A stretch of DNA of 64,000 nt, taken from positions 1,178,001 to 1,242,000 of the forward strand of contig CP145409.1 of assembly GCA_036867785.1 (NCBI GenBank), in the 5' to 3' direction. Positions 1 through 18,275 of this stretch are shown piece by piece (the stretch's first letter is position 1; each line of letters opens with the position of its first letter). The stretch comes from Plasmodiophora brassicae. Its lineage: Eukaryota. The notes under the pieces were generated by a model. It did not search any database. It saw only the letters and a program-made list of their open reading frames with translations, and had not been told where the DNA came from. The translations under genes were made by a program, and so were the position numbers.

Positions 1-264
1 GGGCTGGGGCTGGCGCTGGGCGTCGTTCCTGCGGTCGCGCTGCTGGGCATGTCCGACCCTCCGCCTCCGGGTCACGGCATTTTTCGAATAACTGCGCCCG
101 AAGACACGCGGCGACTCGTCCGCGCCTGGAACGGGGGACCGGGGGGCCGACACCCTACTTAACGGCTCCGCGTTCTTCGGGCGATGCGGTTTGCGCCGTT
201 GCGGCGGCAACCGGCACTGCGCTGACGGCGTCCTGGACGGGATCGTGTCGTTTCCTGGCGACGG

Positions 265-1560
265 ATGCGGGTGGTCGTTGCAGCGAACGCGCTGAAGGAG
301 TGCCTGTCGGCGGGGCGGGCCTGCGAGGCGATCGCGTCCGGGTGCGAGCGCGCCGGCGCGGAAACGATCAGGGTGCCGCTGGCGGACGGCGGCGACGGGT
401 CGGGCGAGATCCTGCACGGCGCCGTCGGCGGCGAATGGAGATCCGTCGATGTGCACGGGCCGACCGGCCGGATCGTGCCAGCCCGGTACGTTTGGGATGA
501 GCGGACCCGGACGGCGCTGATCGAGATGGCGAGGGCGAGCGGGCTGGCGCTGCTCACTGATGATGAAAAGGACCCGATGCAAACGTCGACGACCGGCGTC
601 GGGGAATTGCTGCTTGACGCCGCCTCGCTGTCCCCCGAGTCGATCATCGTCTGCGTCGGCGGGTCGGCGACCAACGACGGCGGTGCCGGGATGGCACACG
701 CTCTCGGTTACAGATTCGTCGGCGACAATGGCGAAGACGTGACCCCAACGGGAGGCGCGCTCCGCAACGTCCGCGAATGTGTCGCGCCTGTCGATCGTTC
801 CGCGATCGATGCGATCCGGCGCGCGAACGTGACGGTCGCCGTCGACACCGACGCGACCTTGGTTGGTCCCCGCGGGGCGACGGCCATGTTTGCCCGCCAG
901 AAAGGTATTCCATTGCGGCGCGCGCCTGGGGCGACCTGTCTCGTGTGTCTCGCGCTGACCGTTGCGCAGGCGCAAAGCAGGGCGACGTGGAGGCGCTCGA
1001 GCGTGGCCTCGGCCGGTTAGCGTCGATCTGGAAGGGATCGGCAGAGTTCGGCCACGCCGATCTCTTGCAAGTGGCCGGTGCGGGTGCGGCTGGGGGCCTG
1101 GCCGCCGGCCTCATGGCCTATTGTGGCGGGCGGCTGCGTGGCGGGTTCGAGCTGATCGCGTCGCACGTCGGCCTCGACGATGCGGTTCGTCGGGCCGACC
1201 TGGTCATCACGGCGGAGGGCATGGTCGATTGTACCGCCGGAAAGGTTCGCCCCCCCGTGTCGCGTGATGTATTACCACACGCGGTTGACGACGCCGACGA
1301 CGTGCCAGGTCCCTTGGGAAGTTGCCCGGGTCTGCGCTGGCCACAACGTTCCTTGCGCGATGCTGACGGGGTCGCTGCCCCCCGGCCCCGTCCTCGCTCG
1401 CCTGGAACGTGCGGCAACGGCGGGTGTCTTTTCCATTGCACCTGGGCCGATATCGCTCCAAGAGTCCAAGGAACGCGCCGAGGCCCTGCTGTCAACAACG
1501 GCCGCGCAGGTGGTGCGATGCTTCCGAAGCGGAATGAATCGCCGTTCTGCATTGCCATAG
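265..1560 (+). CDS. Glycerate kinase, class I (GlxK/GarK-like); exons 265-904, 970-1244, 1309-1560
   Basis: Motifs PLADGGDG, IEMARASGL, GGSATNDGGAGM, GAGAAGGL, ITAEG, GKVP. GT-AG introns 905-969 and 1245-1308 join the three ORFs in frame. Confidence 0.9.
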
Positions 1561-1756
1561 CCCTTGTTACGGACCGGGGTAGCGGGGGGGACTGACCAGA
1601 AACGCTCGGCCAGTAGCGTTGTCAGTGACGAGCGTTGTCGCCTCGCCCCATACACAATGACTGCTAGCCATGGCAACGCGCCCCGGTTCTGCTTGTGACG
1701 CGCATCGCGACAGATTCGCTGGGCGACATATCGGAGCGGCGGCGGAAGCAGCTGAG

Positions 1757-1906
1757 CACGTGACTGGGGGAGGGAGGCAACGTATCGTAGCCCTGGTCAC
1801 GTGGGCTCGGTGTTCGCTATGTGACTGCTAACGACCCGTTGGCAGCTCGGTACGGCGACAAACTACGAACAACACCAACGCGAGAGCGGGCGCCGTTGTG
1901 CACGTG
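1757..1906. promoter_or_regulatory. Three CACGTG E-boxes upstream of the bHLH gene
   Basis: CACGTG at 1757-1762, 1798-1803 and 1901-1906. Confidence 0.4.
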
Positions 1907-1947
1907 CGCGCTAGGGAAGCGGTTGGAGCCCCCGTCCCGTGCGCGTT

Positions 1948-2430
1948 ATGCCCCTGTCGGAACACCTGGAGCCGTATTTCGACGGCGAGATGATTGCCCT
2001 ACACGCCGCATTCGACGACAGCGCTCAGTTCCGGGACCTGGCCATCTCCATCTCCGGCGTCTCCCCGGAAGGGCTCCCGTCCTGGACGTCGTCGTCCGAC
2101 GCACAAGACAAGCAGCGTCCTAGGGCGACTCCACCGGCCACTAAACCCGCGTCGACAACCACTACGGGCACACGTCCTCCGCCGGACGGGGCGCTTCCAG
2201 AGAAGACGACCCCAAGGACGGTCTCGAAACAGCCGCCGCCGAATTCACCGGCCAGCTCGACGTCACCACCAAGCACGCGCCGAGAGAAGCACAATGCCCT
2301 GGAGAATCGGCGTCGTGGAGTGAAGCGGCAGATCTTCGACGAGCTCAAGTTCCTGCTGGAAGGCCCGACGCAGCAGATACCCATCCTTCGGAAATGCCTG
2401 CGAGTCGTCAAGCTCGCCAAGACAAAGTGA
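1948..2430 (+). CDS. bHLH transcription factor (Myc/Max/USF-like basic region), truncated at the C-terminus by the LTR element
   Basis: RREKHNALENRRR...IFDELKFLL...ILRKC basic helix-loop-helix. The stop TGA is the first 3 nt of the LTR, and the frame resumes at 7559. Confidence 0.8.
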   Translation: MPLSEHLEPYFDGEMIALHAAFDDSAQFRDLAISISGVSPEGLPSWTSSSDAQDKQRPRATPPATKPASTTTTGTRPPPDGALPEKTTPRTVSKQPPPNSPASSTSPPSTRREKHNALENRRRGVKRQIFDELKFLLEGPTQQIPILRKCLRVVKLAKTK

Positions 2431-2607
2431 TTCATAATGGGAAGGCTAGCGACAGTGGCCGACCCATGAGTCACGACGACGTGACGCAACTGGTGCACAG
2501 TGGCGACCGTGCCACTGTGTGTGCGACGTCATGGGGACGTCGGCTTCCCCCACGTTAGATACACTGGGGACTTTCACTTTCCTAAGCGCTTCGAACTGCT
2601 TGAATCA
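2428..2607 (+). repeat. 5' LTR (180 bp)
   Basis: TGATTCA...TGAATCA 7-bp terminal inverted repeat; identical by eye to 7374-7553. Confidence 0.97.
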
Positions 2608-2627
2608 GATTAAGAGTCCCACTCTCT
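2608..2627 (+). other. Primer-binding site complementary to the anticodon arm of tRNA-Lys(CUU)
   Basis: GATTAAGAGTCCCA directly follows the LTR. Its reverse complement TGGGACTCTTAATC matches the tRNA-Lys CTT anticodon stem-loop. Confidence 0.8.
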
Positions 2628-2628
2628 G

Positions 2629-4098
2629 ATGGCGACGATCCCAAGCATCCCAGCCGACCTGGCCCAAGCAGAGGCCGTGATCGCCCAGATAAGCGCTGCG
2701 CTGTCCGAGGCCCAGCGGCAGCAGGATCGGCTGGAGGCGGAGGTTGAACGTCTGCAAGCAGCGGCGGCCGGGAGCGGGACCGGCCAGCGCGAGAACGCGG
2801 CGCTCAAGGATCGTCTGGCGCGGCTGGAAGCTGCGCAGAAGGAAAGGCTGACGGGCCTGAAGGAGTCCGGCATCAAGATCTCCGTCCAGCTGAAGGGCAA
2901 GGACAATTACCTGGTCTGGGCGTCGTCGATGACGACGATGCTCAAGAAGTCGGGCCTGCAAAAGGCCGTGGAGCCCGCGACGCGCGGGCACAACGAAGAG
3001 CCGGCGTCGGAGCAAGAGAGGCTCCACGCAATGTACGCTATCAAGAAGAACGTGCATGAAGACGAACTTCCCTTGATACTCGACATACCCGACGACCGTC
3101 CGGACCTGGCGTGGAGCGCCATCCAGACGGAGTATTCCGGCCAAACGGGCACGGACCTGGCGATGTTCGACATTCTTCTGTCAACAACAAAGCTTAAGGC
3201 GGGCGCCGACCTCACGGAGACCAAGGCGCACCTGACGGCGATGCGCGACCTGGGCATCAACCTGGCCCGGGCGGATCCGAATCGGACGAAGACTGAGTCG
3301 GACATGGCGACGAAGGTCCTTATCTCGCTGCCATACACCGAGTACAAGGACTTAGTCAACGCGATGCTGCGCGGTCCCATCGGAGAGCTGACGCAAAGCA
3401 AGGTCCGCGCAGAAGTGCTCGCTCAGTACAAGCGGGGAGCGATAGAGCGCGGCGACGACGACAGCGGCTCCTCGGCGGCCATGACGACGACGGGGTTCTC
3501 CGGCAAGTGCTTCAACTGTGGAAAGGCTGGACACAGGGCGGCCGACTGCCGTAGCCGCAAGAAGACCGGCAACGCCGAGCGCGGCAAGGCCAGGAACGGC
3601 AAGCGGAAGGGGGGCAAAGAGGAAGGCGGTTCGGCGTCGATCGCGCTCCTGACGAGCCTGGCGGGCGTCGAGGACGCGCCGCGGAAGGGCATCCGCGACT
3701 TCATCGTCGACAACGCGGCGACGTGCGGCCACGTGTCCACCCACAAGGCGCACTTCGAGGAGCTGGACTTCATCGCCGACAAGGACCGGCCGACGATCGG
3801 CGGCATCGGCCCGCAGCGAATCAAGGTCCATGCCAGGGGCAACGTCCGCCTCAAGCTGGCTAACGGCAAGTCGATCACGCTGACAAACGTCGCGTACGCG
3901 CCAGATGCATCCGCGAACATCTTCGCGGTGCGTTCGGCACTCCTGCAGCTCGGCAAGGACGGCAAGACGGGCGCGGAGCACCATGAGCAGACGCGCTCAG
4001 CCCGGCTCCTGGACGGGGCCGGAAGGACGATCGTGACCAGTACGGTCCGCAAGGGCCTGTACTACCTGGATCTGCACAAGGTCCAGGATTTCGAGTAG
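2629..4098 (+). CDS. gag: Copia Gag plus aspartic protease (ORF1)
   Basis: LKGKDNYLVWA gag N-terminus, CFNCGKAGHRAADC zinc knuckle, FIVDNAATCGH protease-like motif, LTNVAYAP and GLYYL. Confidence 0.93.
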   Translation: MATIPSIPADLAQAEAVIAQISAALSEAQRQQDRLEAEVERLQAAAAGSGTGQRENAALKDRLARLEAAQKERLTGLKESGIKISVQLKGKDNYLVWASSMTTMLKKSGLQKAVEPATRGHNEEPASEQERLHAMYAIKKNVHEDELPLILDIPDDRPDLAWSAIQTEYSGQTGTDLAMFDILLSTTKLKAGADLTETKAHLTAMRDLGINLARADPNRTKTESDMATKVLISLPYTEYKDLVNAMLRGPIGELTQSKVRAEVLAQYKRGAIERGDDDSGSSAAMTTTGFSGKCFNCGKAGHRAADCRSRKKTGNAERGKARNGKRKGGKEEGGSASIALLTSLAGVEDAPRKGIRDFIVDNAATCGHVSTHKAHFEELDFIADKDRPTIGGIGPQRIKVHARGNVRLKLANGKSITLTNVAYAPDASANIFAVRSALLQLGKDGKTGAEHHEQTRSARLLDGAGRTIVTSTVRKGLYYLDLHKVQDFE

Positions 4099-7000
4099 CG
4101 GGGGTGGCGCTGGCCGCCCCCGATCACGATCATCCAAACCAGCCAGAAAACAAGAGCCCGAGCAAGGAGGAGCCGGCCGAGAAGAAGGAAACGCGCAAGC
4201 CCGCGGACGTAAAGCGCGACAGAACGATATCATTGGCGGAGGCGCACGCGAGGTGCGGCCACCTGTCCACGATCACGATCAGAAAGGCAGTCAAGAACGG
4301 GGCAATCACCGGTCTCAACATCGACGAGGCCGACCTGGCGAGCGACGAGGTGCCCAGGTGCAAGGTGTGCATCGAGGCCAACCTCAACCGAACGGCGATC
4401 CCGCGGAGACGGACACGGACGGTGCTCTCGAAGCTGCAGATCGTCGGGGCGGACCTGCAGACGTTCGACACCAGGTCGCATGACGGAAAGACGTACATGG
4501 CGTGCTACGTTGACCACGCGACTGGTGTCGGTGCCACGGTCAACCTGGCAAATAAGGGTGACCAGGAGCAAGTCGTCATGGACGTGCTGACCCGGCTCGA
4601 GGTCATGGGCGGCACACGCGTCGACACGTTCCGCGCCGACCAGGGCGGCGAGTTCACCTCGACGCGCCTGGCGAAGCTGCTGCGCGAGCGGGGAATCGCA
4701 CAGGAGTTCAGCGACACGGACCGCCCGCACCAGAACGGTCTCGCGGAGACGTTCGGTGGCAAGATTGTCAAGATGATGCGCGCAGCTCGTGTCCAGTCAG
4801 GCGTCCCGCGCAAGTACTGGACCGAGAACGGGCGGCATCAGACGTGGGTAGCCAACCGCGTGCCGCTCCAACGACACGGCCACCGGACGACGCCAATCGA
4901 GGAACTGACGGGGGAACAAGCAGACCTGTCGAGGGCGATGCCATTCGGTTGCGAGGCGTGGGTCAGGATCCGGCGGCAAAAGAAGTGCAAGCTGGACGCC
5001 AGGGCCGAGCGCGCGGTCCACATGGGGGTGTGCATCGACAAGAAGGCGTACCGGCTGCTGCTGTGGCACAGCCGCAAGATGATCGAGTCTTCGGACGTGG
5101 TCTTCTTCCCCAACGAATTCCCGTTCAAGGATGACAGCGGCTCCCGCGGAGAGGAGACCCGCAAGCGCCAAGAGACGGCGCAAGCCCAGCTGCAAGGAGG
5201 CGGCGATGGCGGTCAAGACGATCGTCATGGGCAAGAAGACGACGGCGGTCGGGACGATCGCGTCGCACGACAAGACGACGGCGATCGAGAAGGTCGCGTC
5301 GGTCAACAACAGGGCGGCGGCCAGGATGGCCGCGCCATTCAGCGAGGCGGCGGCGGGGACGACCGTGCCAGGGAACTCGCAGGTGCCGGTGAAGACCGGC
5401 ATGACGGACGCGATGAGCAAGCAGCTCAGGGCGGCGGGGATCGAGGACCTGCTGCTCAAGGCGTCCCTGAACCGAGGCGGTCGACGCGCATCAGAGGAGC
5501 GCCCGCTCGGTTTGCCGACGTGGACTACGACGGCGAAGCGCGGCGCCAGAGGGCGGCCAGCGCCAGGGCGGCAGCAGGGGCTGCCGACAACGTCGACCAG
5601 GCGGCAGCAGCAGATGCTGTCGACCACGACAACGAGGCCAACGACGACCCGGACAACGAGGACCAGGTCAACCAGGACGAGGCGCTCGAGAACGAGGACA
5701 GCTACCTGGAGGAGGAGGACGCTGGCAACGCGTTCCTCACTGAGTACGAGGCCGAGAACGGGCCTGACCGGGACAAGTACCTGGCGGCGCAGGTCGAGGA
5801 GATGCAGTCGCTGAAGGAAGCGGGCACGTATGAGATCGTGGACCGCCCGACCGACGCTCAAGTGCTGCCAACAATGTTCGTGCACACGACGAAGCGCGAC
5901 GAGGACGGGGAGATCACGCGCCACAAGGCCCGCTTCTGCGTCAAGGGATGCTGCGACAAGTTCAAGGGCCAGAAGGAGACGTACTCGCCGACGCTCCGGT
6001 ATGCGACGTTGCGCATCATGGTGGCGCTGGCGGCCATGCTGGGCGTGGTCATCCACCAGCTGGACGTTAAGACGGCGTTCCTGAATGGAGACCTGCCGTA
6101 CCCGATCTACTGTGAACAGCCGAAGAACTTCGTGGTCGGAGGACGCGGCAAGGTGATGAAGCTCCTGAAGGCGCTGTACGGCCTGGTCGAGGCGCCGAAG
6201 CTCTGGTACGATAAGCTCGTATCAGTTCTGTTCGAAATCGGCTTCACAAGGGTGACCGGCGACCCGTGCCTGTTCGTTATGTTCACGACGAAGGACGGCC
6301 GCAGACAGATCACGATCCTCGGGGTGTTCGTGGACGACTTTATGATGTTTGGCACGGATCCCGACGTCATCGAGTACGTCAAGGCAGCGTTGGGCAAGAA
6401 GTTCAAGATGAAGGACCTCGGCATCGCGAGATGGATCCTGGGGATGCGCATCAAGCAGGAGGCAACGCGCATCACGATCGACCAACAGCAGTACGCCAAG
6501 GAGGTGGTCGCGCGGTTCCAGACCGACATCGACGAGGCAGCCGCCGGGCGCCGCTTGCGCGCGCCGGCCACGGCTCTGCCTGTCGGGCAGATTATGCCCC
6601 GGCGAACCGACGGTGTTCCGCACCAGCATGAGCGGTACCGCGAGGGCGTTGGTTGCCTGGCGCATCTGTCGATCGGCACGATGCCGACAATCACGCACGC
6701 GGTGTCGCAGCTGTCGCGTCACCTGAACAACCCGGGTCGGGAGCATTTCGAGGCGATGCTCCACGTGCTGCGATATGTCCAGAACAACACGGATGTCGGC
6801 ATCATCTACGCGAAGAGCAAGACACCGGCGACTGAATTCGACCCGATGGCACTGAACAAAGACAACGTGAAGGAGTCGGAGCCCCGGGCGGCGGTCGACT
6901 CGGACTTTGCGATGGACCCGGACACATCCAAGTCGGTCACGGGATTCATCGTCACGCTGATGGACGCAGCTGTGAGCTGGCGATCGAAGCAGCAAAGCCT

Positions 7001-7367
7001 GGTGGCGACCTCCTCAGCGCACGCGGAGTACGTGGCGGCCAGCGAGCTGGCGCGTGAAGTAGTGTGGGTCCGGATGCTCCTCACCGACATCGGGTTCACT
7101 CTGACGGACCCGTCGATTGTGCTGGAGGACAACACGGCTGCCGAGCAGATGGTGAAGACGCTCGGGGTCACGGACCGGAACAAGCACATTCGGGTGAAAT
7201 GGCACTATGTGCGAGAGTGCGTCCAGGAGGGACTGCTCCGGTTCGAGCGCGTGGCGTCAAAGAACAATCCGGCGGACGCGCTCACCAAGCCGACCACTCG
7301 TGAACCTGTGGAGGTCATGAAGAGGGCGGCCGGGATGGGTCGGGTGGACCTGTCGCTGGCGCCTTAG
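4086..7367 (+). CDS. pol: Copia integrase-RT-RNase H (ORF2, -1 frame, probably reached by frameshift)
   Basis: HARCGH/CKVC zinc motif, DQGGEF and QNGLAE integrase core, QLDVKTAFLNG, KALYGL, FVDD, RNase H DSDFA/EDN/ADALTK. No ATG near the start; the frame is open from 3987. Confidence 0.93.
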   Translation, partial: GFRVAGVALAAPDHDHPNQPENKSPSKEEPAEKKETRKPADVKRDRTISLAEAHARCGHLSTITIRKAVKNGAITGLNIDEADLASDEVPRCKVCIEANLNRTAIPRRRTRTVLSKLQIVGADLQTFDTRSHDGKTYMACYVDHATGVGATVNLANKGDQEQVVMDVLTRLEVMGGTRVDTFRADQGGEFTSTRLAKLLRERGIAQEFSDTDRPHQNGLAETFGGKIVKMMRAARVQSGVPRKYWTENGRHQTWVANRVPLQRHGHRTTPIEELTGEQADLSRAMPFGCEAWVRIRRQKKCKLDARAERAVHMGVCIDKKAYRLLLWHSRKMIESSDVVFFPNEFPFKDDSGSRGEETRKRQETAQAQLQGGGDGGQDDRHGQEDDGGRDDRVARQDDGDREGRVGQQQGGGQDGRAIQRGGGGDDRARELAGAGEDRHDGRDEQAAQGGGDRGPAAQGVPEPRRSTRIRGAPARFADVDYDGEARRQRAASARAAAGAADNVDQAAAADAVDHDNEANDDPDNEDQVNQDEALENEDSYLEEEDAGNAFLTEYEAENGPDRDKYLAAQVEEMQSLKEAGTYEIVDRPTDAQVLPTMFVHTTKRDEDGEITRHKARFCVKGCCDKFKGQKETYSPTLRYATLRIMVALAAMLGVVIHQLDVKTAFLNGDLPYPIYCEQPKNFVVGGRGKVMKLLKALYGLVEAPKLWYDKLVSVLFEIGFTRVTGDPCLFVMFTTKDGRRQITILGVFVDDFMMFGTDPDVIEYVKAALGKKFKMKDLGIARWILGMRIKQEATRITIDQQQYAKEVVARFQTDIDEAAAGRRLRAPATALPVGQIMPRRTDGVPHQHERYREGVGCLAHLSIGTMPTITHAVSQLSRHLNNPGREHFEAMLHVLRYVQNNTDVGIIYAKSKTPATEFDPMALNKDNVKESEPRAAVDSDFAMDPDTSKSVTGFIVTLMDAAVSWRSKQQSLVATSSAHAEYVAASELAREVVWVRMLLTDIGFTLTDPSIVLEDNTAAEQMVKTLGVTDRNKHIRVKWHYVRECVQEGLLRFERVASKNNPADALTKPTTREPVEVMKRAAGMGRVDLSLAP

Positions 7368-7373
7368 GGCGGC

Positions 7374-7553
7374 TGATTCATAATGGGAAGGCTAGCGACA
7401 GTGGCCGACCCATGAGTCACGACGACGTGACGCAACTGGTGCACAGTGGCGACCGTGCCACTGTGTGTGCGACGTCATGGGGACGTCGGCTTCCCCCACG
7501 TTAGATACACTGGGGACTTTCACTTTCCTAAGCGCTTCGAACTGCTTGAATCA
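7374..7553 (+). repeat. 3' LTR (180 bp)
   Basis: Direct copy of 2428-2607, followed by TSD CAAAG. Confidence 0.97.
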
Positions 7554-7558
7554 CAAAG

Positions 7559-7648
7559 TGGCCCGACATCATGACCAGAATCGACGGCGAGAGCGATGCA
7601 GGCGACGATAGCAGCGATGGGGAGCGCACCAGTCCATCCCTACCCTAA
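7559..7648 (+). pseudogene. Detached 3' end of the bHLH gene (29 aa, WPDIMTRIDGESDAGDDSSDGERTSPSLP*)
   Basis: In frame with ...KLAKTK once the element and one TSD copy are removed. Confidence 0.8.
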
Positions 7649-7786
7649 CTATATATACACGGAGATGCCCTATTATTCCCGACCTGTATGGAAGAATTCA
7701 TCTGTGGCACCGCGTTCAGCATGTGACAGTGGCCGTCACGTGGCGCGTGCCATTCGAGGAGTATCGCTGGCGCTGGTTGCCGTATC

Positions 7787-8940
7787 ATGGCGCCACCCAA
7801 GGGCAAGGGGAAGGGCCGTAAGGCAGGGCCACAGGAGGAGTACAATGGGTTCTGCGCGCCGGTCTCGCTACTGTACGACACGTTCAAATCGAACGTGGCG
7901 GCATCGGGCGGCCGCGTCCTGCCGGAACAGGCCGCCCCTGTCCTGGCCATGCTCCAGAAGGAACCCGACGATAAGCTCACGCAGATCAACATCGGGGACC
8001 CGATCGGGCCCGCCTGCGTCGAGCAACTGTGCCGAACCGTCCAGCAGATCTACTTCCTCGGCATCCGATCCGTCTGCTTCTGGAACGCCCAGCTAGGAGG
8101 TCAGTTCGACTCCAGCGGGCCGTTCACCTTCGCGTTCGTTAACCCCACCAGGCAGACGCCGGCTGCGCCCACGTTTGCCGTGCTATTGTGTACATGGAAG
8201 CCTTGCACAAGTTCGAGATCACTGACAGCGGCATGGGCGTCATGGCTGCCACTGCCCTCGTCCGTCACCGCCCCAATCACAGGCCTGATCATGACCGCGC
8301 GTCTGACTGAACATTGCAGGCGGACTCGCTGAGGACGTACAGAAACAAGCACCTGCGAATCATTAACGTCAGCAGGAATGCCGATCTAGGTGACGCGGGC
8401 GTTGAAGCCCTTCTGAGAGGGGTGCGGCTTCGTAAGGGGATCCACGAGCTGGACGTGTCGTTCTGCGCGCTGACGCCCCAATCCGGCCCGTATTTCGCCG
8501 ACCTGCTACGGTCGGCATACACGAGGATTCAGGCGATCAACCTCGAGGGGAACAACCTGCTGTCGACGGGCACGCTGGAGCTATGCCGGGGGCTGATCGG
8601 CAACCCCACGATCGAGTTCGTCAACTTGGCGAACAACAGCTTCGATGTCGAGAACCAGGACGCGATCCAGGCGCTGTGCGAGGTCATGCAGCACACGCCG
8701 TCGCTGGCCGAGATCGACCTTGACGGTAACCTGCTGAACGACGACAGTTCCGCCCTGCTGCTGGACGCGATCAAGAAGGCGCCACACGTGTCCAAGCTCG
8801 TCATCAGCCACCTGGTCCCGTTGAAATCAGCCCAGCTGATCCTCGACGAGCTCGGCAAGCGGAAACCCGGCCGTAAAGGGAAGAAGGCGGCCGGCGGCGC
8901 GAAGAAGGGCAAGAAAGGCGGCAAGAAGAAGAAGAAATAG
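7787..8940 (+). CDS. RNI-like leucine-rich repeat protein with Lys-rich termini; 2 introns
   Basis: LxxLxLxxNxL repeats (INLEGNNL, VNLANNSF, IDLDGNLL), GKKKKK tail; introns about 8100-8155 and 8260-8319. Confidence 0.8.
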
Positions 8941-9025
8941 AACACGCTGGTCAGATTGTATTTCTACCGTGTCGACGACGTCGATCCCAGTCTTGGGCCA
9001 GGACGTCGGTAACGTCGCCCGTCGC

Positions 9026-10817
9026 TTAACGGCGGTCGGGCGCTGCCTCCTGACCGGCGACGGGATGGCCTCGATAACCTGACATGGAGCTGTTCACATT
9101 CAACGAGAGAGAGCTAGCACGCAGAGCAACGTACTCCAGCGCAGACTGAAGTCGTGCCAGATGCCCTTTCGAGCCCGCCGACAGGGCTCGTGTACCAGGT
9201 TGGCAGGCGCTGCTGACCTTCCGCGCGTCGTCGACAGGAGTGGTGCTGACGCGTCCGTCACGAAGCATTTCGGGCGGGGCGCCGGCCGCAAGCAGAGCTT
9301 CCCCGAGCAGGAGGCGGCTGGAACGAACGATTGCGTCCACGCGATGACGGCTACTCTTCAAGAGGAGGTCGTTCGCGGACAGCATCTCGCCAACCACGTC
9401 CTGCTGAGATGCTACCGACCAAGAGATCGTCGTGGGGCGCTGTCGGAACGGCACGTCCTCATCGTCATCGTCCACATCGTTATTGCCGTCGTCGTCCTCC
9501 GGTTCGCCAACGTCTTCGCCTACATCGCGACGAACGGGCTCCTAGACATGGTCCTGTCACACGCCACACATGCAAAGGCACCCTCCCCCAAATAATCACC
9601 AACCTGTGGGCTAACGAAGACCCTGTCAACGACACGAACCGTGGGGACGGATGAGGATATACGCTCAACTAGGGCGTCCCGATCCAACGAAGCACAGCAG
9701 GGGTTCGCTGCAATACCGAGCTCGTAGAGGTCAGGCAAGCGGCCTAGCGCAGCAATGGCCACCGCCAGGTCACGTAGGCCGTTCTCGGAAACGTCGAGCA
9801 CGAGCAGGCCAGGAAACTGTTCGTCAATCCCTTTAATATCTGTATCGCGCCCACCTTAGTATTTGCACGTGGTGGACACATAGCCAAACGCACCAGTAAG
9901 CCTATTGCGAGCAATGTGCAACTCCTGCAGAAGCGGGAGCGTGGGCAGGTCCTGAAGTTTGCGAATACGGTTTCCAGACAGCGACAGACACTGAGGTTCC
10001 CCAATCAGGTCTGGATCAGAGGACTTCAGATGGGAACCAACCGTCAGCATCGTTAGAGACGAGAGGCATGCAGCGCGCGCGATGCGATTTCGGCCGAGTT
10101 GGAGGTCCTCCAGATGGCAGCACAGCGAGATGGGCTGGACGTCCTCGATATCGTTGTTATCCGCGCTGAACCACACCAGCTGGCCAAGTTGCCGAGCGAA
10201 CTGTCGCCGAAGGGTGTTTGCGAGATTGAGAACGCGATGGTCGGAGCACGCTTACAGAAACGCTTCGTAGGCGATTGCCAGACACGTCAAGCGACGTCAA
10301 CGATCGCGGCAGTTCTGCGATGTTCTCGATACAGTTCTGCTGGAGGCGAATCTTTGTCAGGGACAGAAGGCGCGCCACGCCACTGGCGTCTGAGATCCGG
10401 TTATTGTTCTACGATTACCAAGAAGGGCAGTTAGCGCCGCATGGCCTGCCCACCAAGCCGTCCCCTTTCAGCATACAAGGTACAGAATTGTGAGTCGAGG
10501 CTTCCTAGAGACGCTGTCAGGATTTCGACGACCCTGCGCCATATGAAGGACGGCCCTACTTCACGAGCAGGTTGAACTTTGATATCCGATTGTAGCCCAG
10601 GTCGACAAAGGCGACGTCGAGAAACGCTTCCAACCCCATCACATCGACGATCCGGTTCATGCTCAAGTTCAGGGCGCTGACGGTACCGGCCTATCGAATC
10701 GATACAATCATGACACGTTCGGGGGTCGTGTATGTGGAGAGGCACCTCGGGAACGGATGGGATGGCCTCCAGATTCCTACTGGACAGGTCGAGTTTCTCG
10801 CCACTCCGCTTCCCCAT
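9026..10817 (-). CDS. SDS22-like leucine-rich repeat protein, multi-exon (boundaries approximate)
   Basis: LDLSSRNL, LDVSGNRL, LQLGRNRI, LSLSGNRI, LDVSENGL and an ANPC cap, spread over short exons. Confidence 0.75.
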
Positions 10818-10958
10818 CGCCGATTCTCGCACGGGCGCCGGTCGTCGACGACAGGCTGTGACTGCCCCACTGCCAGCCCGCCCGACTTCAACAACACGCG
10901 CTCTACCATGCCACGCCAGCACCGAGAAATCGACGAGGAAACGGCATCAGAACCAATG

Positions 10959-11453
10959 TCAAGACGACGTGCTGACGTCCTGATCTTCATCCCCGTCTTG
11001 GCCTGGTTCTTGGGATCCCAAACAGCATCTGGAGCGCTCCGCGGCGTCGTCGTCCACGACGAGAACCGGATCGCGCATCACCGGACGGATCAGGGCGCTC
11101 AGGTACGCGTCGACGAGCAGGCACACGGCGATCAGCGCCGAATGGTCCATCGACTCCACCAGGTCCAGGCGCCCCATGTCATACATGATATCCTGGGCCA
11201 TGACGTGCACCGCCTCCTGCAGGTCGCACGGCGGCAGACGCCTCGTCGACGCCGCCGACGCCGCCTCGTCGCGCCGCTCGAGCGCGTCGCCCAGCGCCGC
11301 ATCCGCACGGTCGACCGCCTGCGGGACCGTCACGCTCCACGTCCACACGCGACCGTGCCGCCGCTTCCGGATCAGGTCCTGCTGGTACGCCGCCCGCCTA
11401 CCATCGCCCCACGTCTCCCGCAGCAACGCCTCCCGTGCCCGCTTCCGCGACAT
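10959..11453 (-). CDS. Hypothetical protein
   Basis: ORF MSRKRAREALL... with protein-like composition; no recognised domain. Confidence 0.5.
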   Translation of the reverse strand: MSRKRAREALLRETWGDGRRAAYQQDLIRKRRHGRVWTWSVTVPQAVDRADAALGDALERRDEAASAASTRRLPPCDLQEAVHVMAQDIMYDMGRLDLVESMDHSALIAVCLLVDAYLSALIRPVMRDPVLVVDDDAAERSRCCLGSQEPGQDGDEDQDVSTSS

Positions 11454-11630
11454 CGCCTGCACCGTGCCCGCCCGAAATGGCCGAACGACCGCCGACGCAA
11501 CGAGACCGTCGACCGATCGAACGGGGGATCCCACTGACTCTCGTGATAACGGTGCGACGTGTGTGTAGTGATCCTAGGCCGGGTGTGTCGTCGGCGTGTT
11601 CGACGCGCTGCTGGAGGGGGCAGCGGTGGC

Positions 11631-12686
11631 TCACGTGAGAAGGCCGACGGCGATGCCCGAGGCGAACATGGACAGGACGGTGATCCAGGACGTGAGGTTC
11701 AGCATGGAGGTACCGGAGAGGCCATGCCCGGACGTGCACCCGCCGGCGAGGCGCGCCCCGAATACGACCAGGAAGCCGCCGGCGAAGCTGGACGCCCACG
11801 ACGGCAGCGGCTCGTGGAACGGAGTCGCCGTCGCCCCGGCGCTGGCGAGGAACGACCCGACGACGGCAGCGCTGACGAACGCGGCCTGCCCGATCTTGGA
11901 CGGGTCGGTCGACGTCGAGCAGTCGCCGCACGTCTGGTCCGCTTCGGCAGAGGCGATGAACGTCTGGACGGCGCGAGACGCGCGCAGGCCGTTCAGCGCG
12001 CGGCAGACGGCGATGACGAACGAGGACGACGTGCCGAGCGCGGTCGGGACCATCGTGGCCAGTGGCAGCTGAAGGGCGCCGATCGCCAGCCCCGCTGCCG
12101 TTGGCGTCCAGGACGCCGTCGTCAGCATCGCCGTCTCCTGACGGGACGGAACGAGAACCTCCAGGGCGAGCGACGCGCAGAGGCAGACCGTCCCGAGGGC
12201 GAACTGGACGGTCGACGATCCCGCGTTCAGTTCCGCGTTGCGAATCGTGGGGTACCGCGCGACGACGCGTTTGATGAGCGGGCGGGCGGCGATGAAGGTC
12301 GCCGCGCCGAGGAGCCCGCCGAGAACGCCGGGGATGGCGTTGGGAATGCCGGCGCCCAGCTGGACGTAGACGGTGCCCGGGCAGGTCCCGCCGATGGCCA
12401 TGCCGGCACCGAGGAGGGCGCCACCGGAGATGAGCGTCGCGATCGAGTAGGGTTGACACCTGGCGCGGACGGTGGCGAAGGCGGCCGGGCGGAATTTCGA
12501 CAGCATCGCGAACGCGATCATGGAGGCGGACAGGGCGCCGAGGAACATCTTCATCATGATGAATCGGCGCAGGCGGAACTGGTCCATGATGATCGCCGGC
12601 ACGTGCACGTGCCCTTTGTTCATGGCGTACCCGAAGGTGGCGCCCGCGGCCAATTCCACCGCCCACTTTGACAGGTCCGTCCCCAT
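11631..12686 (-). CDS. YeeE/YedE (TsuA-like) thiosulfate/sulfur-compound transporter
   Basis: Multi-TM protein with GGTCPGT and ARLAGGCTSGHG motifs; single exon. Confidence 0.88.
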   Translation of the reverse strand: MGTDLSKWAVELAAGATFGYAMNKGHVHVPAIIMDQFRLRRFIMMKMFLGALSASMIAFAMLSKFRPAAFATVRARCQPYSIATLISGGALLGAGMAIGGTCPGTVYVQLGAGIPNAIPGVLGGLLGAATFIAARPLIKRVVARYPTIRNAELNAGSSTVQFALGTVCLCASLALEVLVPSRQETAMLTTASWTPTAAGLAIGALQLPLATMVPTALGTSSSFVIAVCRALNGLRASRAVQTFIASAEADQTCGDCSTSTDPSKIGQAAFVSAAVVGSFLASAGATATPFHEPLPSWASSFAGGFLVVFGARLAGGCTSGHGLSGTSMLNLTSWITVLSMFASGIAVGLLT

Positions 12687-13409
12687 TGGAATCGAAACGC
12701 GACACCGACGCGTACAGCCAGGGCCCCCTGGTAACGGGATACTGTAGCGGTTCTTAGCGCCAATAACAGGGGCGAACCGTCACAGCAAGGGTCCGCATCG
12801 CTCACACAGACACCTGTGTGACCGCCAGCTACGGTGGGCCGTTTCTCTCGGGCCTGCGGATCGGATCGCCTCGTTACGCGCCCATGTGAAATTTGACCAT
12901 CATCTCTGCCGCCACGTTAGTGCGGGCGCTGCCCCCTCTCGCGCTATCCCCCTCGCGGTCGGTGCGCAACACGATAGCCCGGATCGGGAAAGTCGTACTG
13001 AATGTTCCGCGCCGGATGCAGTGAGGCCGCGAACGCACGTGGATCCGCGCCTGGGCTGACTGACCACCGGCGGTTGTTGTTGCCCGTATAGCGCGTGGGG
13101 ACGCGACGGGAGGTGTCGCGCATCAGGGCAGCAGCGCGGGCGGACGCGGCGAAGGAACCAGGATCCAGTGCTGCAGCAGGGGGGAGGGGGCCTCTCTGTC
13201 AGTCAGGCCCGGATCCGTGGGCCGTGGTGGTCCGTGACTGCCGCGACGCAGTCGTGCCGGTCGCCGGATTTAGCGCTCGCGGGCTGCCCGCAGTGGCAGG
13301 TGGGTCGCCTCGTGAAAAAGGGGGCCCGATCTTGCCCATGTTCCGCCCGACTCCTCGGACAACCTGCCCGTAGCCCGGATGATCCAAAGCAGACCCACTA
13401 TCGGTCGGC

Positions 13410-14614
13410 ATGTCGTCGGTGGCGGTGGCGTACAGCGCGCCGAGCGAGTTGCGCTTCAGGGGGCGGCGCCTGTCGGGCGCCGGCTCCGGCGTCTGCGGGG
13501 TCTACTTCGTGCGCCGGCCGACCACCGGGCGGGACGCGCGCGCCGTCGACTACGTCTTCAAGCCGCGGATCGAGGAGCCCAGCGAACCGATCAGCAAAGA
13601 CAAGCTCGTCGCCAAGAAGCCGTCACCCGTCATCCGCAGCATCATGGCAGGCGAGCGCATAGGAACGGCGTCGCCCATCAAGAACGGTGTCATCGTCGGC
13701 GACGGTCCGTAACGTATCGTCAGCCGGCGCCAATATGTCGTTCTGACGATCCGCCCGCAGCTGTTCTTAAGGAGCGTGCCGCATACCTCGTCGACCACGA
13801 CCAGTGGGCGGGCGTCCCGCGCACCGAAGCGGTCCGCGTCAGCATCGAGCTGGACGACACGGGCGCTGTCGTTCGCGACTTCGGGTCGCTGCAAGCGTTC
13901 GTTCAGCATGATTCCACATCGGAAGACGTTGGCTGTGCGCTGTTCGACAAGAATGATGTCCATCGTATTGGGTTGCTCGATGCGCGCCTGTTCAACCTGG
14001 ACCGGCACGAAGGGAACCTGTTGGTGCATCGCCGTGAGGATGGACGCGTCCGGTTGGTCCCCATCGACCATGGGTACGCGTTGCCATCGTGGCGCGACCT
14101 CAGCGACGCCTCGTTCTGCTGGCAAACCTGGAAGCAAGCATCGTTACCGTTCAGCGACGAGGTCGTGGCGTACGTCGCGGATTTGTGTCCCAAGCGGGAC
14201 ATCGTACCGTTGTTGAATCTGGGCCTCAAGCACGAATGCGTCGTCACATACATCATCTGCTCGTCGTTCGTCAAGAAGGCGGTCGCTGCCGGCCTGACCC
14301 TCGCCGACATCGGCAGCATTCTGCAACGCGATATGCTGTCGCCTGACGACCCATCCGAATTCGAACTCATTGTACGATCGGCGGCCAGCGCCACCGACTT
14401 CTTCTCGTTCGTCTTCCAATCAAAATCCAGTTGGGACGATGAACGCGTCGCCGACTTCCTAGAGGCGTTCGGCCGCCTAGCCGACCAGCTCATCGACCAT
14501 CGCTGCGAGCATCGCCGCCAGAGCATGTCCACGACCTGCTCTGCATCATGTGCATCCGACTCAGGCATTTCCAGCACTGTCCGTCATCGTTCACACGTTG
14601 CTTCGTCGTCATAG
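13410..14614 (+). CDS. Type II (gamma-like) phosphatidylinositol 4-kinase family protein; intron 13705-13760; start uncertain
   Basis: YVFKP, ERAAYLVDH, GSLQAFV, NLDRHEGNLLV, PIDHGYALP. Confidence 0.87.
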
Positions 14615-14796
14615 TATTGTTATTATCAGCAAATAGATACACCGGTCGTTAGAACGTTCCGCATGGCATGCTGCAATTGCAAACGAAAACGCTCGCGGTC
14701 GTTGTATTGAAATATGGACTCCGTCCCGAAACAGAAAGCAGATCACGCCACGAGTAAGACTTGCACCAGAACACACGGGTTCGTCGTTGTGAGCGT

Positions 14797-17700
14797 TCAG
14801 TTGCTGCAGATCAGTGCAACGTTTAGGTGCTTGCGAATGCCGTCTGTTGACAGTAGTGTCAAATCTGGCACTATTCCAATGGGAAGCCAACGAACGCTAC
14901 GTACAGCAGGGGTCGCCGAAGACCGAGTTCACCGCTTGAATCGAGCACGACGGACGGTGCAGGCACGCTTGCTGGGCAACAGCCGCGGACGACGACGCAT
15001 GGCATTTCGACGAGATCATTCCCCCTTCTGGAAGACCGTATGACGCGAACGCCACAGCAGAGACGGTCTGGCCCGCGGGACACGACAGCGTTAACGTGGT
15101 GGTCTCATCGGCCGACCCGGAGATCTCGTGCGTCTGCGGCTGGGGTGGCGCGGGAGCCGGCCCACTGCAAATCACCGCAAGGTTCAGGTGCTTCCTGGTG
15201 CCATCTGTTGACAGATTAGCACAAACGGGTGGAACACTGAACAATGTTACGTACAGCAAGGGTCGCCGAAGACCGAGTTCGCCGCTTGGATCGAGCATGA
15301 CGGACGGTGCAGGCACGCTTGCTGGGCAACAGCCGCTGACGACGGTGCATGACACTTCGGCGAGATCGTGGTCCGATCCGGGAGACCATACGACGCGAAC
15401 GCAACGGCGGAGACGGTCTGGCCCGCGGGACACGACAGCGTCAACGTCGTGGTCTCGTCGGTAGATCCGAAGATCTCGTGCGACTGCGGCTGGGGCGGCA
15501 CGGGAGCCGGCCCACTGCAGATCAGGGCAAGGTTCAGGTGCTTCCTGGTGCCATCTGTTGACAGATTAGCACAAACGTGTGGCACACTCAACAATGTTAC
15601 GTACAGCAAGGGTCGCCGAACACCGAGTTCGCCGCTTGGATGGAACACGATGGACGGTGCAGGCACGCTTCCTGGGCAACAGCCGCCGACGACGACGCAT
15701 GGCATTTCGGCGAGATCGTGGTCCGATCCGGGAGACCATACGACGCGAACGCCACAGCAGAGACGGTCTGGCCCGGGGGACACGATAGCGCCAACGTGGT
15801 GGTCTCATCGGCCGACCCGAAGATCTCGTGCGACTGCTGCTGGGGCGGCACGGGAGCCGGCCCACTGCAAATCAGCGCAAGGTTCAGGTGCTTCCTGGTG
15901 CCATCTGTTGACAGATTAACACAAACGTGTAGAACACTTAACAATGTTACGTACAGCAGGGGTCTCCGAAGACCGAGTTCACCGCTTGAATCGAGCACGA
16001 TGCGCGGTGCAGGCACGCTTGCTGGGCAATAGCCGCTGACGACGGCGCGTGGCATTTCGGCGAGATCGTGGTCCGGTCCGGAAGACCGTACGATGCGAAC
16101 GCCACAGCAGAGACGGTTTGGCCCGCGGGACACGACAGCGCCAACGTGGTGGTCTCATCAGTCGACCCGAAGATCTCGTGAGACTGCTGCTGGGGCTGTG
16201 CGGGCGCATGCGTCAGGGGCGGCGCAGACATGGGCACGAGTGCCGCAGTGCATATCAGCGCCACGTTCAGGTGCTTCCTGGTGCCAACTGCAGTACGGTC
16301 AGACAATGGTTGCGATGCTGGCGCTGTCACCCGCGACGCACGTACCGCAAGGGTCGCCAAACACTGAGTTCCCCGCTTGGATCGAGCACGAAGTGCGGTG
16401 CAGGCACTGAGCTTGGGCAACCGACACCGACGACGGCGCATGGCATTTCGGCGAGATCGTGGTGCCGTCAGGTAGACCGTACGACGCGAATGCAACCTGG
16501 CCGATGGTCTGGCCCGCCGGGCAGGACAGCTTCAGCGTGGTGGTCTCGTCGGCCGACCCGTAGATTTCGTGCTTGGTCGCTTCGACACACTGGCCTTCGT
16601 TGCCGCACTCGTAGCCTTTGGCACAGTGTGCGTCCTTCAAGCAGCGTTCGCAGGCGGAAGATTTCGGGTTGCATAGACCAGCAACGCCAACGCCCTCCAT
16701 GTTCTTGTTGATCCAGGCGATGGCGCTCTCGAGGGCCGCCAGCTCCTTGTTGCGGATCTGGACGCGCGCCTCGTACTCCTTGGCGTCGCTCTCCTGCTGG
16801 CTGTGCAGGCGGGCGAGCAGGGCCTGAAGCTGGGTGATCTGAGCGCTCAATGTGTCGAGGGCGCCCTGGACGAGCTTGAGACGGGTCTGGCCCGTCTGGA
16901 CGTCGGTCGACAGCAACGACGCGCCCTGTGCATTCAGCTGCAGCTGACGGTCGAACTGGGCGATCAGCGCATTCGTCGCCTGTTGAAGGGCCGCGAACTC
17001 GGTCCTGTCTTCCTGGAGCTGCGCGGTGTACACTTTGGCGCTGGCTTGGATGCCTGCAACGACCTGCTCCAGGATGCCAATCGCTTCTTGCACGGCGGCT
17101 TCGCCGACGCTCTCGTCCTGGTCCTGTTCCTCCAGCAGGCGCAAACTGTCGATGGCGTCCTGGACCAGCACCGTAACCGGCTCCACGTCTTCGTGCATGT
17201 ACTCGTGCGTCTGCGTCGACAGCTGCTCGACGAAATGGTGCACGTTCAGGTCCGCTTGTTTCAGGGACGTGATGATGTCCTTGACCAGCTGAAGGGACCG
17301 CTGATGGTCCTCGATAGCGTCAGTCAGCTCGCGCTGGTCGTTGCTGAACTGGATCGTCGCAACGTTCAGATCGGCACGCAGCTGGGCTTCGTACCCTCGT
17401 ATCTGGCCATTGTCGCTGTCCGTCGCAGCCAGGTCGTGCTTCAGGTTGGCGATCTCGGCAGGCAGCGACTGGACGACCTTCTGCGCTGCACCGCGGTCGC
17501 CCTGGATGTCCTGCAAGTGTGCCTGGTTCGTCTTGATCGCGTTGCTGAGGTAGGATTGCGCGGACGTGAATTTCGCGGCGTCTGCCTTCTGGTCGGCCAT
17601 GATCTCCTGCTGGATGCCCAGGAGCGCGTTGATGATCTCCGCCTTGGTGGACCTGAGTTCGACCAGGTCCGTCGACGATTCCATATCCATGTACCGGGAT

Positions 17701-17813
17701 GCGACCGCCAGGACCGTGTCCATCAAGTCGGTACCCATGCGGGCATTACTGGCGTGGTCGCTGGCGAACACACCCGCGGCCGCCACCACGACGAGGACGA
17801 GCTTGCCGAACAT
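14797..17813 (-). CDS. Secreted coiled-coil protein with a Cys-rich linker and five SUEL/Gal_lectin domains
   Basis: Signal peptide MFGKLVLVVVAAAGVFA. Repeats LSCPAGQT..FASYG..C..C..SCSI..FGDPC/GTRKHL. Phase-1 introns at 16288-16345, 15905-15954, 15555-15604, 15205-15254 and 14844-14904. Confidence 0.88.
14800..16575. repeat. Tandem repeat of about 350 bp x5 (lectin domain plus intron)
   Basis: Near-identical units at an exact 350-bp period in the middle copies (300 coding + 50 intron). Confidence 0.95.
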
Positions 17814-18275
17814 GACTCGCGCTGTCACTGCGTTTGGGTTCTGGCGTCATGGTCGACAGCGAGCCTCGCAGCAGCCAGGCGAACCGGTCGGCGGGCCCGG
17901 CACAGCGACGACGTCGCCGCGGCGGACTGTCGGGCATAGACACTGCTGCAGGCAGTGACAGGCGACTGCGAACTGCAAACTGCAGCTTATGAACGCAGAC
18001 GGCGCTCGCCTGGCGGCTGGCACTATCTGCACTACGTACTATACTCGTCGCTGTCACAGGGCGCATCATGCAGCGCCACCGTGACGTACAGGCATGGCCC
18101 CAACAACTGTTGCGGCCGCCTGTGCGAAATGTGCTGTTCAGCTACGACATGCCCGATAGGTACTGCGCTGTCGTTATCGTTGTCCAGCGCGCCACGTACG
18201 TGGCCGACGAGCGGCGACCCCACGTCAGGTGACAAATAGTTAATAATAGGGATGTGGGCCTTCGAAATGGTCGAA

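What the first reader, a model, noticed from the sequence alone, without database searches (positions are those of the whole stretch)
2608..2627. Retrotransposon apparently primed by a half tRNA-Lys(CUU)
Seen: the PBS starts directly after the LTR as GATTAAGAGTCCCA, without the usual TGG. Its complement TGGGA-CT-CTT-AA-TC is the anticodon arm of eukaryotic tRNA-Lys(CTT), ending 2 nt into the 3' stem strand. Known: Drosophila copia and Ty5 prime from the equivalent internal position of tRNA-iMet (PBS GGTTATGGGCCCAG). Inference: the same half-tRNA priming mechanism switched to a Lys tRNA, which I do not recognise as a common configuration.
Basis: partly seen in the sequence, partly recalled or inferred. 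Interest (0 to 1): 0.75.

Follow-up and report, generated by a model that had tools for sequence, protein, structure and literature searches.

The report
Copia retrotransposon primed by half tRNA-Lys
An intact, recently inserted copia-type retrotransposon in a protist genome carries a primer site that matches the middle of a lysine tRNA instead of its end, a rare but already described way of starting reverse transcription.

Summary
Window 2428-7553 is a complete Ty1/copia LTR retrotransposon: two identical 180-nt LTRs (TG..CA), a 5-bp target duplication CAAAG, and open gag-PR and IN-RT-RH frames. The 14 nt directly after the 5' LTR (2608-2621) are the exact complement of nt 27-40 of eukaryote-type tRNA-Lys(CUU) genes fetched from metagenome contigs. 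That is the anticodon arm, ending 2 nt into the 3' stem strand, the position from which hemiviruses (copia, Ty5, Osser, 1731) prime. No other place in the window is complementary to this tRNA for more than 10 nt. There is no TGG-type site next to the LTR, and self-priming is not supported.

The reading "half-tRNA priming switched to tRNA-Lys" is therefore the best one. It is not new as a kind. Donnart et al. 2017 report an 11-nt PBS, sharing 10 of its 11 letters with this one, "complementary to an internal region" of tRNA-Lys in FunCo1 (found in 270 fungal species). Half tRNA-Ile is described for the plant Bianca lineage.

New here are the host (a plasmodiophorid-like rhizarian, by eIF5) and a copia lineage without named close relatives.

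The host's own tRNA-Lys(CUU) could not be read, and relatives' PBSs could not be surveyed.

The parts
2423..2427 (+). Target-site duplication CAAAG, left copy
   Evidence: The same 5 nt stand at 7554-7558, directly outside both LTRs.
2428..2607 (+). 5' LTR, 180 nt, TG...CA
   Evidence: Direct repeat family D2, 100% identical to 7374-7553. There is no further copy in the window.
2608..2621 (+). Primer binding site GATTAAGAGTCCCA, complementary to nt 27-40 of tRNA-Lys(CUU)
   Evidence: It is the exact complement of 12 of 12 tRNA-Lys(ctt) genes found with it. It is the longest tRNA complement in the window.
2622..2627 (+). Possible extension of the PBS: 2 mismatches (tRNA nt 26, 25), then 4 complementary bases (nt 24-21)
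   Evidence: Four bases alone are not significant, so the function is only inferred.
2629..4098 (+). ORF1: gag (copia-type, CCHC knuckle) plus protease-like beta-barrel
   Evidence: Pfam hits Retrotran_gag_2 (below its cut-off), zf-CCHC and Pol_BBD. ORF listed.
3987..4098 (+). Overlap of ORF1 with the open -1 frame of ORF2 (presumed frameshift zone)
   Evidence: the ORF2 frame is open from 3987 and the ORF1 stop is at 4096-4098. No slippery site was identified.
4104..7367 (+). ORF2: integrase, SH3-like domain, reverse transcriptase RVT_2, RNase H region
   Evidence: Pfam hits rve (below its cut-off), SH3_retrovirus and RVT_2 at E 3.4e-54. Relatives are 42-49% identical.
7366..7373 (+). Short purine-rich stretch next to the 3' LTR (putative polypurine tract)
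   Evidence: Sequence. It is a weak tract and the assignment is inferred from position only.
7374..7553 (+). 3' LTR
7554..7558 (+). Target-site duplication CAAAG, right copy

Best explanation
The locus is an intact, very recently inserted Ty1/copia (Pseudoviridae-type) LTR retrotransposon. Its minus-strand DNA synthesis is primed by a 5' fragment of cytoplasmic tRNA-Lys(CUU) whose 3' end lies at about nt 40, two bases into the 3' strand of the anticodon stem. It is not primed by the CCA end of a tRNA.

The fragment pairs through nt 27-40 with the 14-nt PBS that abuts U5. Reverse transcriptase extends it into U5/R, and the rest of the cycle follows the usual LTR-retroelement scheme.

Shown here: the anatomy of the element, the exact complementarity to eukaryote-type tRNA-Lys(CUU) genes, its position flush with the LTR, and the absence of alternative primer sites.

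Inferred: that the host tRNA has this arm, that the tRNA is cleaved at nt 40 (by whatever activity makes the copia/Ty5 primer), and that the element is active.
For: Structure:
- Identical LTRs, a TSD and open gag-PR and IN-RT-RH frames.

PBS and tRNA:
- 2608-2621 is the complement of nt 27-40 in 12 of 12 tRNA-Lys(ctt) genes recovered with the 14-mer. Eleven of these are of eukaryotic Pol III type.
- Complementarity starts at the first base after the LTR and does not continue into it.
- The 14-mer is the longest complement to the tRNA in 128 kb of sequence; the next best is 10 nt.

Literature:
- Hemiviruses start cDNA from the 3'-OH of nt 40 (PMC1181622, passages).
- FunCo1 elements have an 11-nt PBS sharing 10 letters with this one, assigned to an internal region of tRNA-Lys (PMC5445492, passages).
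- The primer type is lineage-specific, and half tRNA-Met and half tRNA-Ile occur only in Ty1/copia (PMC6317226, passages).

From established retroviral knowledge (recalled): the plus-strand copy of the PBS is templated by the primer. A copy with identical LTRs should therefore still show the primer's sequence.
Against: The host's tRNA-Lys(CUU) was not seen. I laid contigs of four runs that hold this locus on a phage tRNA-Lys(ctt) gene with the same arm. Only 3 short contigs were laid:
- 52 nt, 3 of 33 other letters;
- 82 nt, 12 of 62 other letters;
- 152 nt, 6 of 43 other letters.
None was identical over nt 8-40.

The 52-nt contig continues after nt 40 with AGT where the eukaryote-type genes have CCA. 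If it were the host's tRNA, its stem would differ and the PBS would probably pair over only 11 of 14 positions (nt 30-40). Its origin is unknown; the runs also hold plant and probably bacterial DNA.

No related element could be fetched, so conservation of the PBS in the lineage is untested. No primer, cDNA or small-RNA data were seen.
Confidence: 0.8

Rival explanations
1. The primer is a tRNA-Lys(CUU) 5' fragment with another 3' end. Examples are a loop-cleaved tRNA half, or a 5' exon ending at nt 37 if the host gene has an intron. Under this reading the first 1-3 bases after the LTR are only a spacer that happens to match.
For: FunCo1's PBS as printed lacks the base that would pair with nt 40. 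One laid contig departs from the bait right after nt 40; this could be a different stem, though I cannot rule out an intron-bearing gene.
Against: All three bases 2608-2610 pair with nt 40-38; the chance of that is about 1 in 64. Complementarity ends exactly at the LTR edge. Hemivirus priming is reported from nt 40.
Confidence: 0.1
2. The match is coincidental, and the element primes in another way: Tf1-like self-priming from its own 5' end, or no tRNA at all.
For: The host tRNA was not seen. Fungal GalEa elements show that copia elements can lack a tRNA-type PBS.
Against: The longest complement between the LTR and 2608-2640 is 6 nt, a length reached by 1219 of 2000 shuffles. A 14-nt exact match flush with the LTR, to the very position used by hemiviruses, has a chance of order 1e-6 even allowing about 50 tRNA species and a few end points (my estimate). 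The next-best tRNA complement in the window is 10 nt.
Confidence: 0.04
3. A conventional PBS for the CCA end of another tRNA lies further downstream, at the TGGCGACG at 2630.
For: A TGG exists at 2630-2632.
Against: It is 22 nt from the LTR and is part of the gag start codon context ATGGCG. None of the 32 tRNA genes in the loci scanned was compared with it, so this rival is weakly tested. From recalled knowledge, PBSs lie 0-5 nt from the LTR.
Confidence: 0.02

Closest known systems
FunCo1 clade of fungal Copia retrotransposons (Donnart et al. 2017, PMC5445492)
   Same: The PBS ATTAAGAGTCT is assigned to an internal region of tRNA-Lys. Ten of its 11 letters equal window 2609-2618 plus the following base pattern. 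Both are Ty1/copia elements.
   Different: The eleventh letter differs (C here, T there), which corresponds to the other form of the tRNA's anticodon stem. The host here is a plasmodiophorid-like rhizarian, whereas FunCo1 was found only in Pezizomycotina plus 2 copies in Lipomyces. Phylogenetic relation was not tested. The nearest named proteins here are green-algal and arachnid, at about 35% identity or less, not fungal.
Hemivirus-type elements: copia, Ty5, Osser, 1731 (half tRNA-iMet)
   Same: The PBS is flush with the LTR with no TGG, is complementary to the anticodon arm, and implies a primer 3' end at nt 40. The superfamily is the same.
   Different: The tRNA species is Lys(CUU) instead of initiator Met. 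Priming here is inferred, not demonstrated.
Bianca lineage of plant Ty1/copia (half tRNA-Ile; Neumann et al. 2019, PMC6317226)
   Same: It shows that a half-tRNA-priming copia lineage can use a tRNA other than Met.
   Different: The tRNA is Ile rather than Lys, and the hosts are plants.
Tf1/TAR-type self-priming elements
   Same: They also lack a TGG-type PBS.
   Different: They need a PBS complementary to the transcript's 5' end. That was tested here and not found.

Membership tests
Ty1/copia (Pseudoviridae) LTR retrotransposon | Two LTRs with TG..CA ends and a 5-bp target duplication | tested here: met
Ty1/copia (Pseudoviridae) LTR retrotransposon | Domain order gag - protease - integrase - RT - RNase H, with a copia-type RT (RVT_2) | tested here: met
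   ORF1 has gag_2 (24.8 bits, below its cut-off of 27), CCHC and Pol_BBD. ORF2 has rve (30.3 bits, below its cut-off of 32.6), SH3_retrovirus and RVT_2 (184.5 bits).
Half-tRNA-priming elements (Hemivirus in the ICTV sense) | PBS next to the 5' LTR, complementary to an internal tRNA stretch ending in the anticodon stem (nt ~40), not to the CCA end | tested here: met
   against tRNA-Lys(ctt) genes from metagenome contigs that serve as stand-ins for the host's gene.
Half-tRNA-priming elements (Hemivirus in the ICTV sense) | The host has a tRNA with that arm | tested here: inconclusive
   No tRNA in the window and no genome held. The laid contigs did not settle it.
Half-tRNA-priming elements (Hemivirus in the ICTV sense) | A cleaved tRNA found attached to minus-strand strong-stop DNA | not testable with these tools
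   This needs VLP cDNA or small-RNA data.
FunCo1 clade | PBS ATTAAGAGTCT (internal tRNA-Lys) | tested here: met
   Ten of 11 letters are identical. The single difference fits a variant of the same tRNA stem.
FunCo1 clade | Clusters with FunCo1 in an RT/RNase H tree | not tested
   No FunCo1 sequence was on hand. The nearest relatives are unnamed metagenome proteins.
FunCo1 clade | Host in Pezizomycotina | tested here: not met
   The best named eIF5 hit is Spongospora subterranea at 63% identity. An outer-dynein-arm docking protein (ODAD1) lies in the window.
Self-priming elements (Tf1-like) | PBS complementary to the 5' end of the transcript within the LTR | tested here: not met
   The longest complement is 6 nt, reached by 1219 of 2000 shuffles.

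The most novel reading that the evidence does not exclude
Half tRNA-Lys(CUU) priming arose, or was kept, in a copia lineage of rhizarian protists that is unrelated to fungal FunCo1.

The half-tRNA primers known to me are initiator Met, Ile and Lys from the papers read, plus Arg(UCU) of Candida Tca2, which I recall and could not find in the library. By textbook knowledge all of these tRNAs read ANN codons and carry t6A at position 37.

The step that makes or selects the half-tRNA primer might therefore recognise this class of anticodon loop. That would explain which tRNAs a hemivirus-type element can switch to.
Probability: 0.2. Interest if true: 0.6.

Novelty: new member of a known kind. Interest (0 to 1): 0.3.

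Why it matters
It extends a rare priming mode, an internally cleaved tRNA other than initiator Met, from fungi and plants to a rhizarian protist. It does so in a young, apparently intact copy whose PBS should still mirror the primer. Together with FunCo1 and Bianca, it shows that the tRNA species is exchangeable while the cleavage position (nt ~40) stays fixed. That constrains models of how the primer is made. For annotation, LTR-retrotransposon finders that look only for 3'-end PBSs will score such elements as lacking a PBS.

Tried and rejected
**Host tRNA**
- ARAGORN and Rfam found no tRNA in the window.
- ARAGORN with introns gave one spurious hit with a 1025-nt intron.
- No genome is held.
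- Of 24 sequencing runs listed, 20 hold at least 0.92 of the words of 2000-8000, in 9 studies. No RNA holder is listed.
- I did not use a eukaryote-type tRNA-Lys gene as bait for read laying, because I recall it as identical to a human gene. I used the phage tRNA-Lys(ctt) of L073 instead. Runs X8 and X10 laid nothing. X3 and X15 laid 3 short contigs of unknown origin. The result is inconclusive.

**PBS survey of relatives**
- Of the 105 of 117 14-mer matches that lie outside tRNA genes, none lies in a locus encoding a gag/pol relative (0 of 116 loci, tblastn).
- None is flanked by an LTR-like repeat or followed by a CCHC+RT ORF.
- Viral contigs and prokaryote genome contigs hold no relative.

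**Other attempts**
- Duplex-energy tiling of the window against the tRNA half did not discriminate in this GC-rich DNA: -46.0 at the PBS against a minimum of -49.7 elsewhere.
- The second 14-mer-like site at 52542 (2 mismatches) lies in coding-looking sequence with no LTR and was dismissed.
- Earlier findings of this scan held nothing relevant.
- Ke et al. 1999 on Ty5 is not held.
- Supplements are closed. Additional file 4 of PMC5445492 and files 1 and 5 of PMC6317226 may hold the exact FunCo1 and half-tRNA PBS tables.

Full report
**What is there**

Window 2428-7553 (+) is a complete LTR retrotransposon of 5126 bp. Its LTRs (2428-2607 and 7374-7553) are 180 nt long, 100% identical and bounded by TG...CA (sequence). 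The pentamer CAAAG stands directly outside both LTRs, at 2423-2427 and 7554-7558, and is the target-site duplication.

ORF1 (2629-4098) carries a copia-type gag (24.8 bits, below Pfam's cut-off), a CCHC knuckle and the Pol beta-barrel (protease-like) domain. ORF2 (4104-7367) carries integrase (rve, 30.3 bits, below its cut-off), the retroviral SH3-like domain and RVT_2 at E 3.4e-54. The order PR-IN-RT makes it Ty1/copia. There is no second copy or solo LTR in the window. Identical LTRs, open frames and an intact duplication point to a very recent insertion.

**The observation**

The base after the LTR is 2608, and 2608-2621 reads GATTAAGAGTCCCA. There is no TGG within 22 nt, and the first one belongs to the gag start ATGGCG.

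No tRNA lies in the window (the intron-mode hit is spurious) and no genome is held. ARAGORN placed 12 of the 117 matches inside tRNA-Lys(ctt) genes.

In all 12 genes the 14-mer is the complement of nt 27-40. That covers the 5' strand of the anticodon stem, the loop with anticodon CTT, and the first two bases of the 3' strand. Eleven genes have no encoded CCA and a T-run just downstream, the mark of eukaryotic Pol III genes. The twelfth is part of a 21-tRNA phage array.

Beyond the 14-mer there are two mismatches (nt 26, 25) and then four more complementary bases (2624-2627, nt 24-21). Towards the LTR the complementarity stops at once, since nt 41 is C and the last LTR base is A.

In the whole window, on both strands, the longest perfect complement to the tRNA is this 14-mer. 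The runners-up are two 10-mers.

**What the other 105 matches are**

- None lies in a locus encoding a gag/pol relative (0 of 116 loci).
- None is preceded by a sequence that recurs as an LTR would. The only recurrence is the two tRNA copies of L037.
- None is followed by a CCHC+RT ORF.

They are chance occurrences in a very large collection and tell nothing about related elements.

**Mechanism**

The best reading is hemivirus-type priming. A 5' fragment of tRNA-Lys(CUU) ending at nt 40 anneals through nt 27-40 to the PBS, and reverse transcriptase extends it into U5.

PMC1181622 (passages) states that hemiviruses (Ty5, Osser, 1731, copia) use a half-tRNA and start cDNA from the 3'-OH of nt 40 in the anticodon stem-loop. 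That is exactly the end implied here. A review (PMC5371799, passages) attributes the Ty5 primer end to RNase P-mediated internal cleavage. I could not read the primary paper.

Self-priming is not supported. The longest complement between the LTR and 2608-2640 is 6 nt, reached by 1219 of 2000 shuffles.

The cleavage, the packaging of the fragment and the activity of the element are inferred, not shown.

**The host tRNA: not settled**

The eIF5 gene of the window (29903-31132, minus strand) has Spongospora subterranea as its best named relative, at 63% identity. The window also encodes an outer-dynein-arm docking protein and a proteasome subunit. The host is therefore a flagellate, plasmodiophorid-like rhizarian, not a fungus.

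Of 24 runs listed, 20 hold at least 0.92 of the words of 2000-8000, in 9 studies. All are kept as contigs.

I laid four of these runs on the phage tRNA-Lys(ctt) gene of L073, which has the same arm. I did not send the eukaryote-type genes because I believe they are human-like.
- X8 and X10 gave nothing.
- X3 gave a 52-nt contig (3 of 33 other letters over nt 8-40) and an 82-nt contig (12 of 62).
- X15 gave a 152-nt contig (6 of 43).

The differing letters were not listed. The 52-nt contig continues after nt 40 with AGT rather than CCA. Its stem therefore differs from the eukaryote-type genes. If it were the host's tRNA, the PBS would probably pair over nt 30-40 only. Its origin is unknown; these runs are far larger than the host genome is likely to be, and include a plant metagenome series.

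This result neither confirms nor refutes the arm. In either case the loop and the nt 39-40 part of the match would stand.

**Comparison with what is known**

The configuration is in print.
- Donnart et al. [quoted passage not shown] The element here shares 10 of these 11 letters. The eleventh corresponds to the other variant of the tRNA stem.
- Neumann et al. 2019 (PMC6317226, passages) found half-tRNA PBSs only in Ty1/copia lineages of plants: half Met in Osser, Bryco and part of Gymco-II, and half Ile in Bianca.
- The ICTV profile (PMC8515867, passages) uses the short tRNA segment as the mark of Hemivirus.

A half-tRNA primer other than Met, and tRNA-Lys in particular, is therefore a known kind.

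In the held library I found no report of it outside fungi. The library is partial and supplements were closed.

**Is it a FunCo1 element?**

This was not shown.
- The closest pol relatives (42-49% identity over the whole ORF; up to 55% over RT-RH) are unnamed metagenome proteins.
- Of 10 top hits looked up, the 4 nearest relatives among them (P0162, P0163, P0165, P0168) carry no name. The named ones are a green alga (Micractinium, 36%) and a pseudoscorpion (28% and 34%).
- Other named hits are Haematococcus and Closterium, mostly at 30-39% over roughly half the query or less.
- No fungal name appeared, but names are sparse in these libraries and no FunCo1 sequence was on hand.

Whether the Lys PBS is inherited or convergent stays open.

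**Verdict**

The mechanistic reading is well supported by sequence logic (confidence 0.8). The novelty is modest: a new member of a known kind, in a new host group and a poorly sampled copia lineage.

The boldest reading still open concerns the half-tRNA primers known so far: iMet, Ile and Lys, plus Arg(UCU) of Tca2 from memory. All are ANN-decoding, t6A37-bearing tRNAs by textbook knowledge. This could mean that primer formation recognises that class of anticodon loop. It rests on recall and four cases, and I put it at about 0.2.

Noticed in passing
window 1939-2427 and 7559-7648: The element sits inside the 3' end of a host ORF. The 163-codon frame upstream runs into the LTR, whose first three bases TGA now end it. 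The same frame continues for 29 codons to a TAA just after the right target duplication. The insertion would therefore cut off the last 29 residues. The ORF has no Pfam hit at E 0.001.
   Followed up: partly
window 3987-4104: gag-protease and integrase-RT-RNase H lie in two frames. ORF2 is in the -1 frame and overlaps ORF1 by 112 nt. I recognised no slippery heptamer. All nine relatives aligned (P0002-P0007, P0162, P0165, P0168) are 932-1082 aa (A1). The six with Pfam domains listed (P0002-P0007) show no gag or protease domain. More distant relatives of 1350-1900 aa carry gag to RT in one ORF. A split between protease and integrase may thus be a trait of this lineage.
   Followed up: partly
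window ~3703-3720 (ORF1 residues ~359-364): At the start of the protease-like beta-barrel domain the sequence reads VDNAAT. I recall copia proteases having D-S/T-G-A at this point, so a non-canonical active site is possible. It was not aligned against references.
   Followed up: no
window 14893-16633: There is a tandem array of five copies of about 350 nt (300-nt core, 66-89% identity to the first copy) in a GC-rich region.
   Followed up: no
window 1-20000 versus 20001-60000: G+C falls from 0.62-0.66 in the first 20 kb to 0.53-0.59 afterwards, and rises again to 0.65 in the last 4 kb.
   Followed up: no
window 5130-5700 (ORF2 residues ~345-535): A long low-complexity linker rich in G, D, R, Q and A lies between the integrase SH3-like domain and RT. 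The alignment consensus is undefined over most of it in relatives.
   Followed up: no
L073 (metagenome contig), 1244-8726: An array of 21 tRNA genes on one strand includes a tRNA-Lys(ctt) with the same anticodon arm and an encoded CCA. It looks like a large phage.
   Followed up: no
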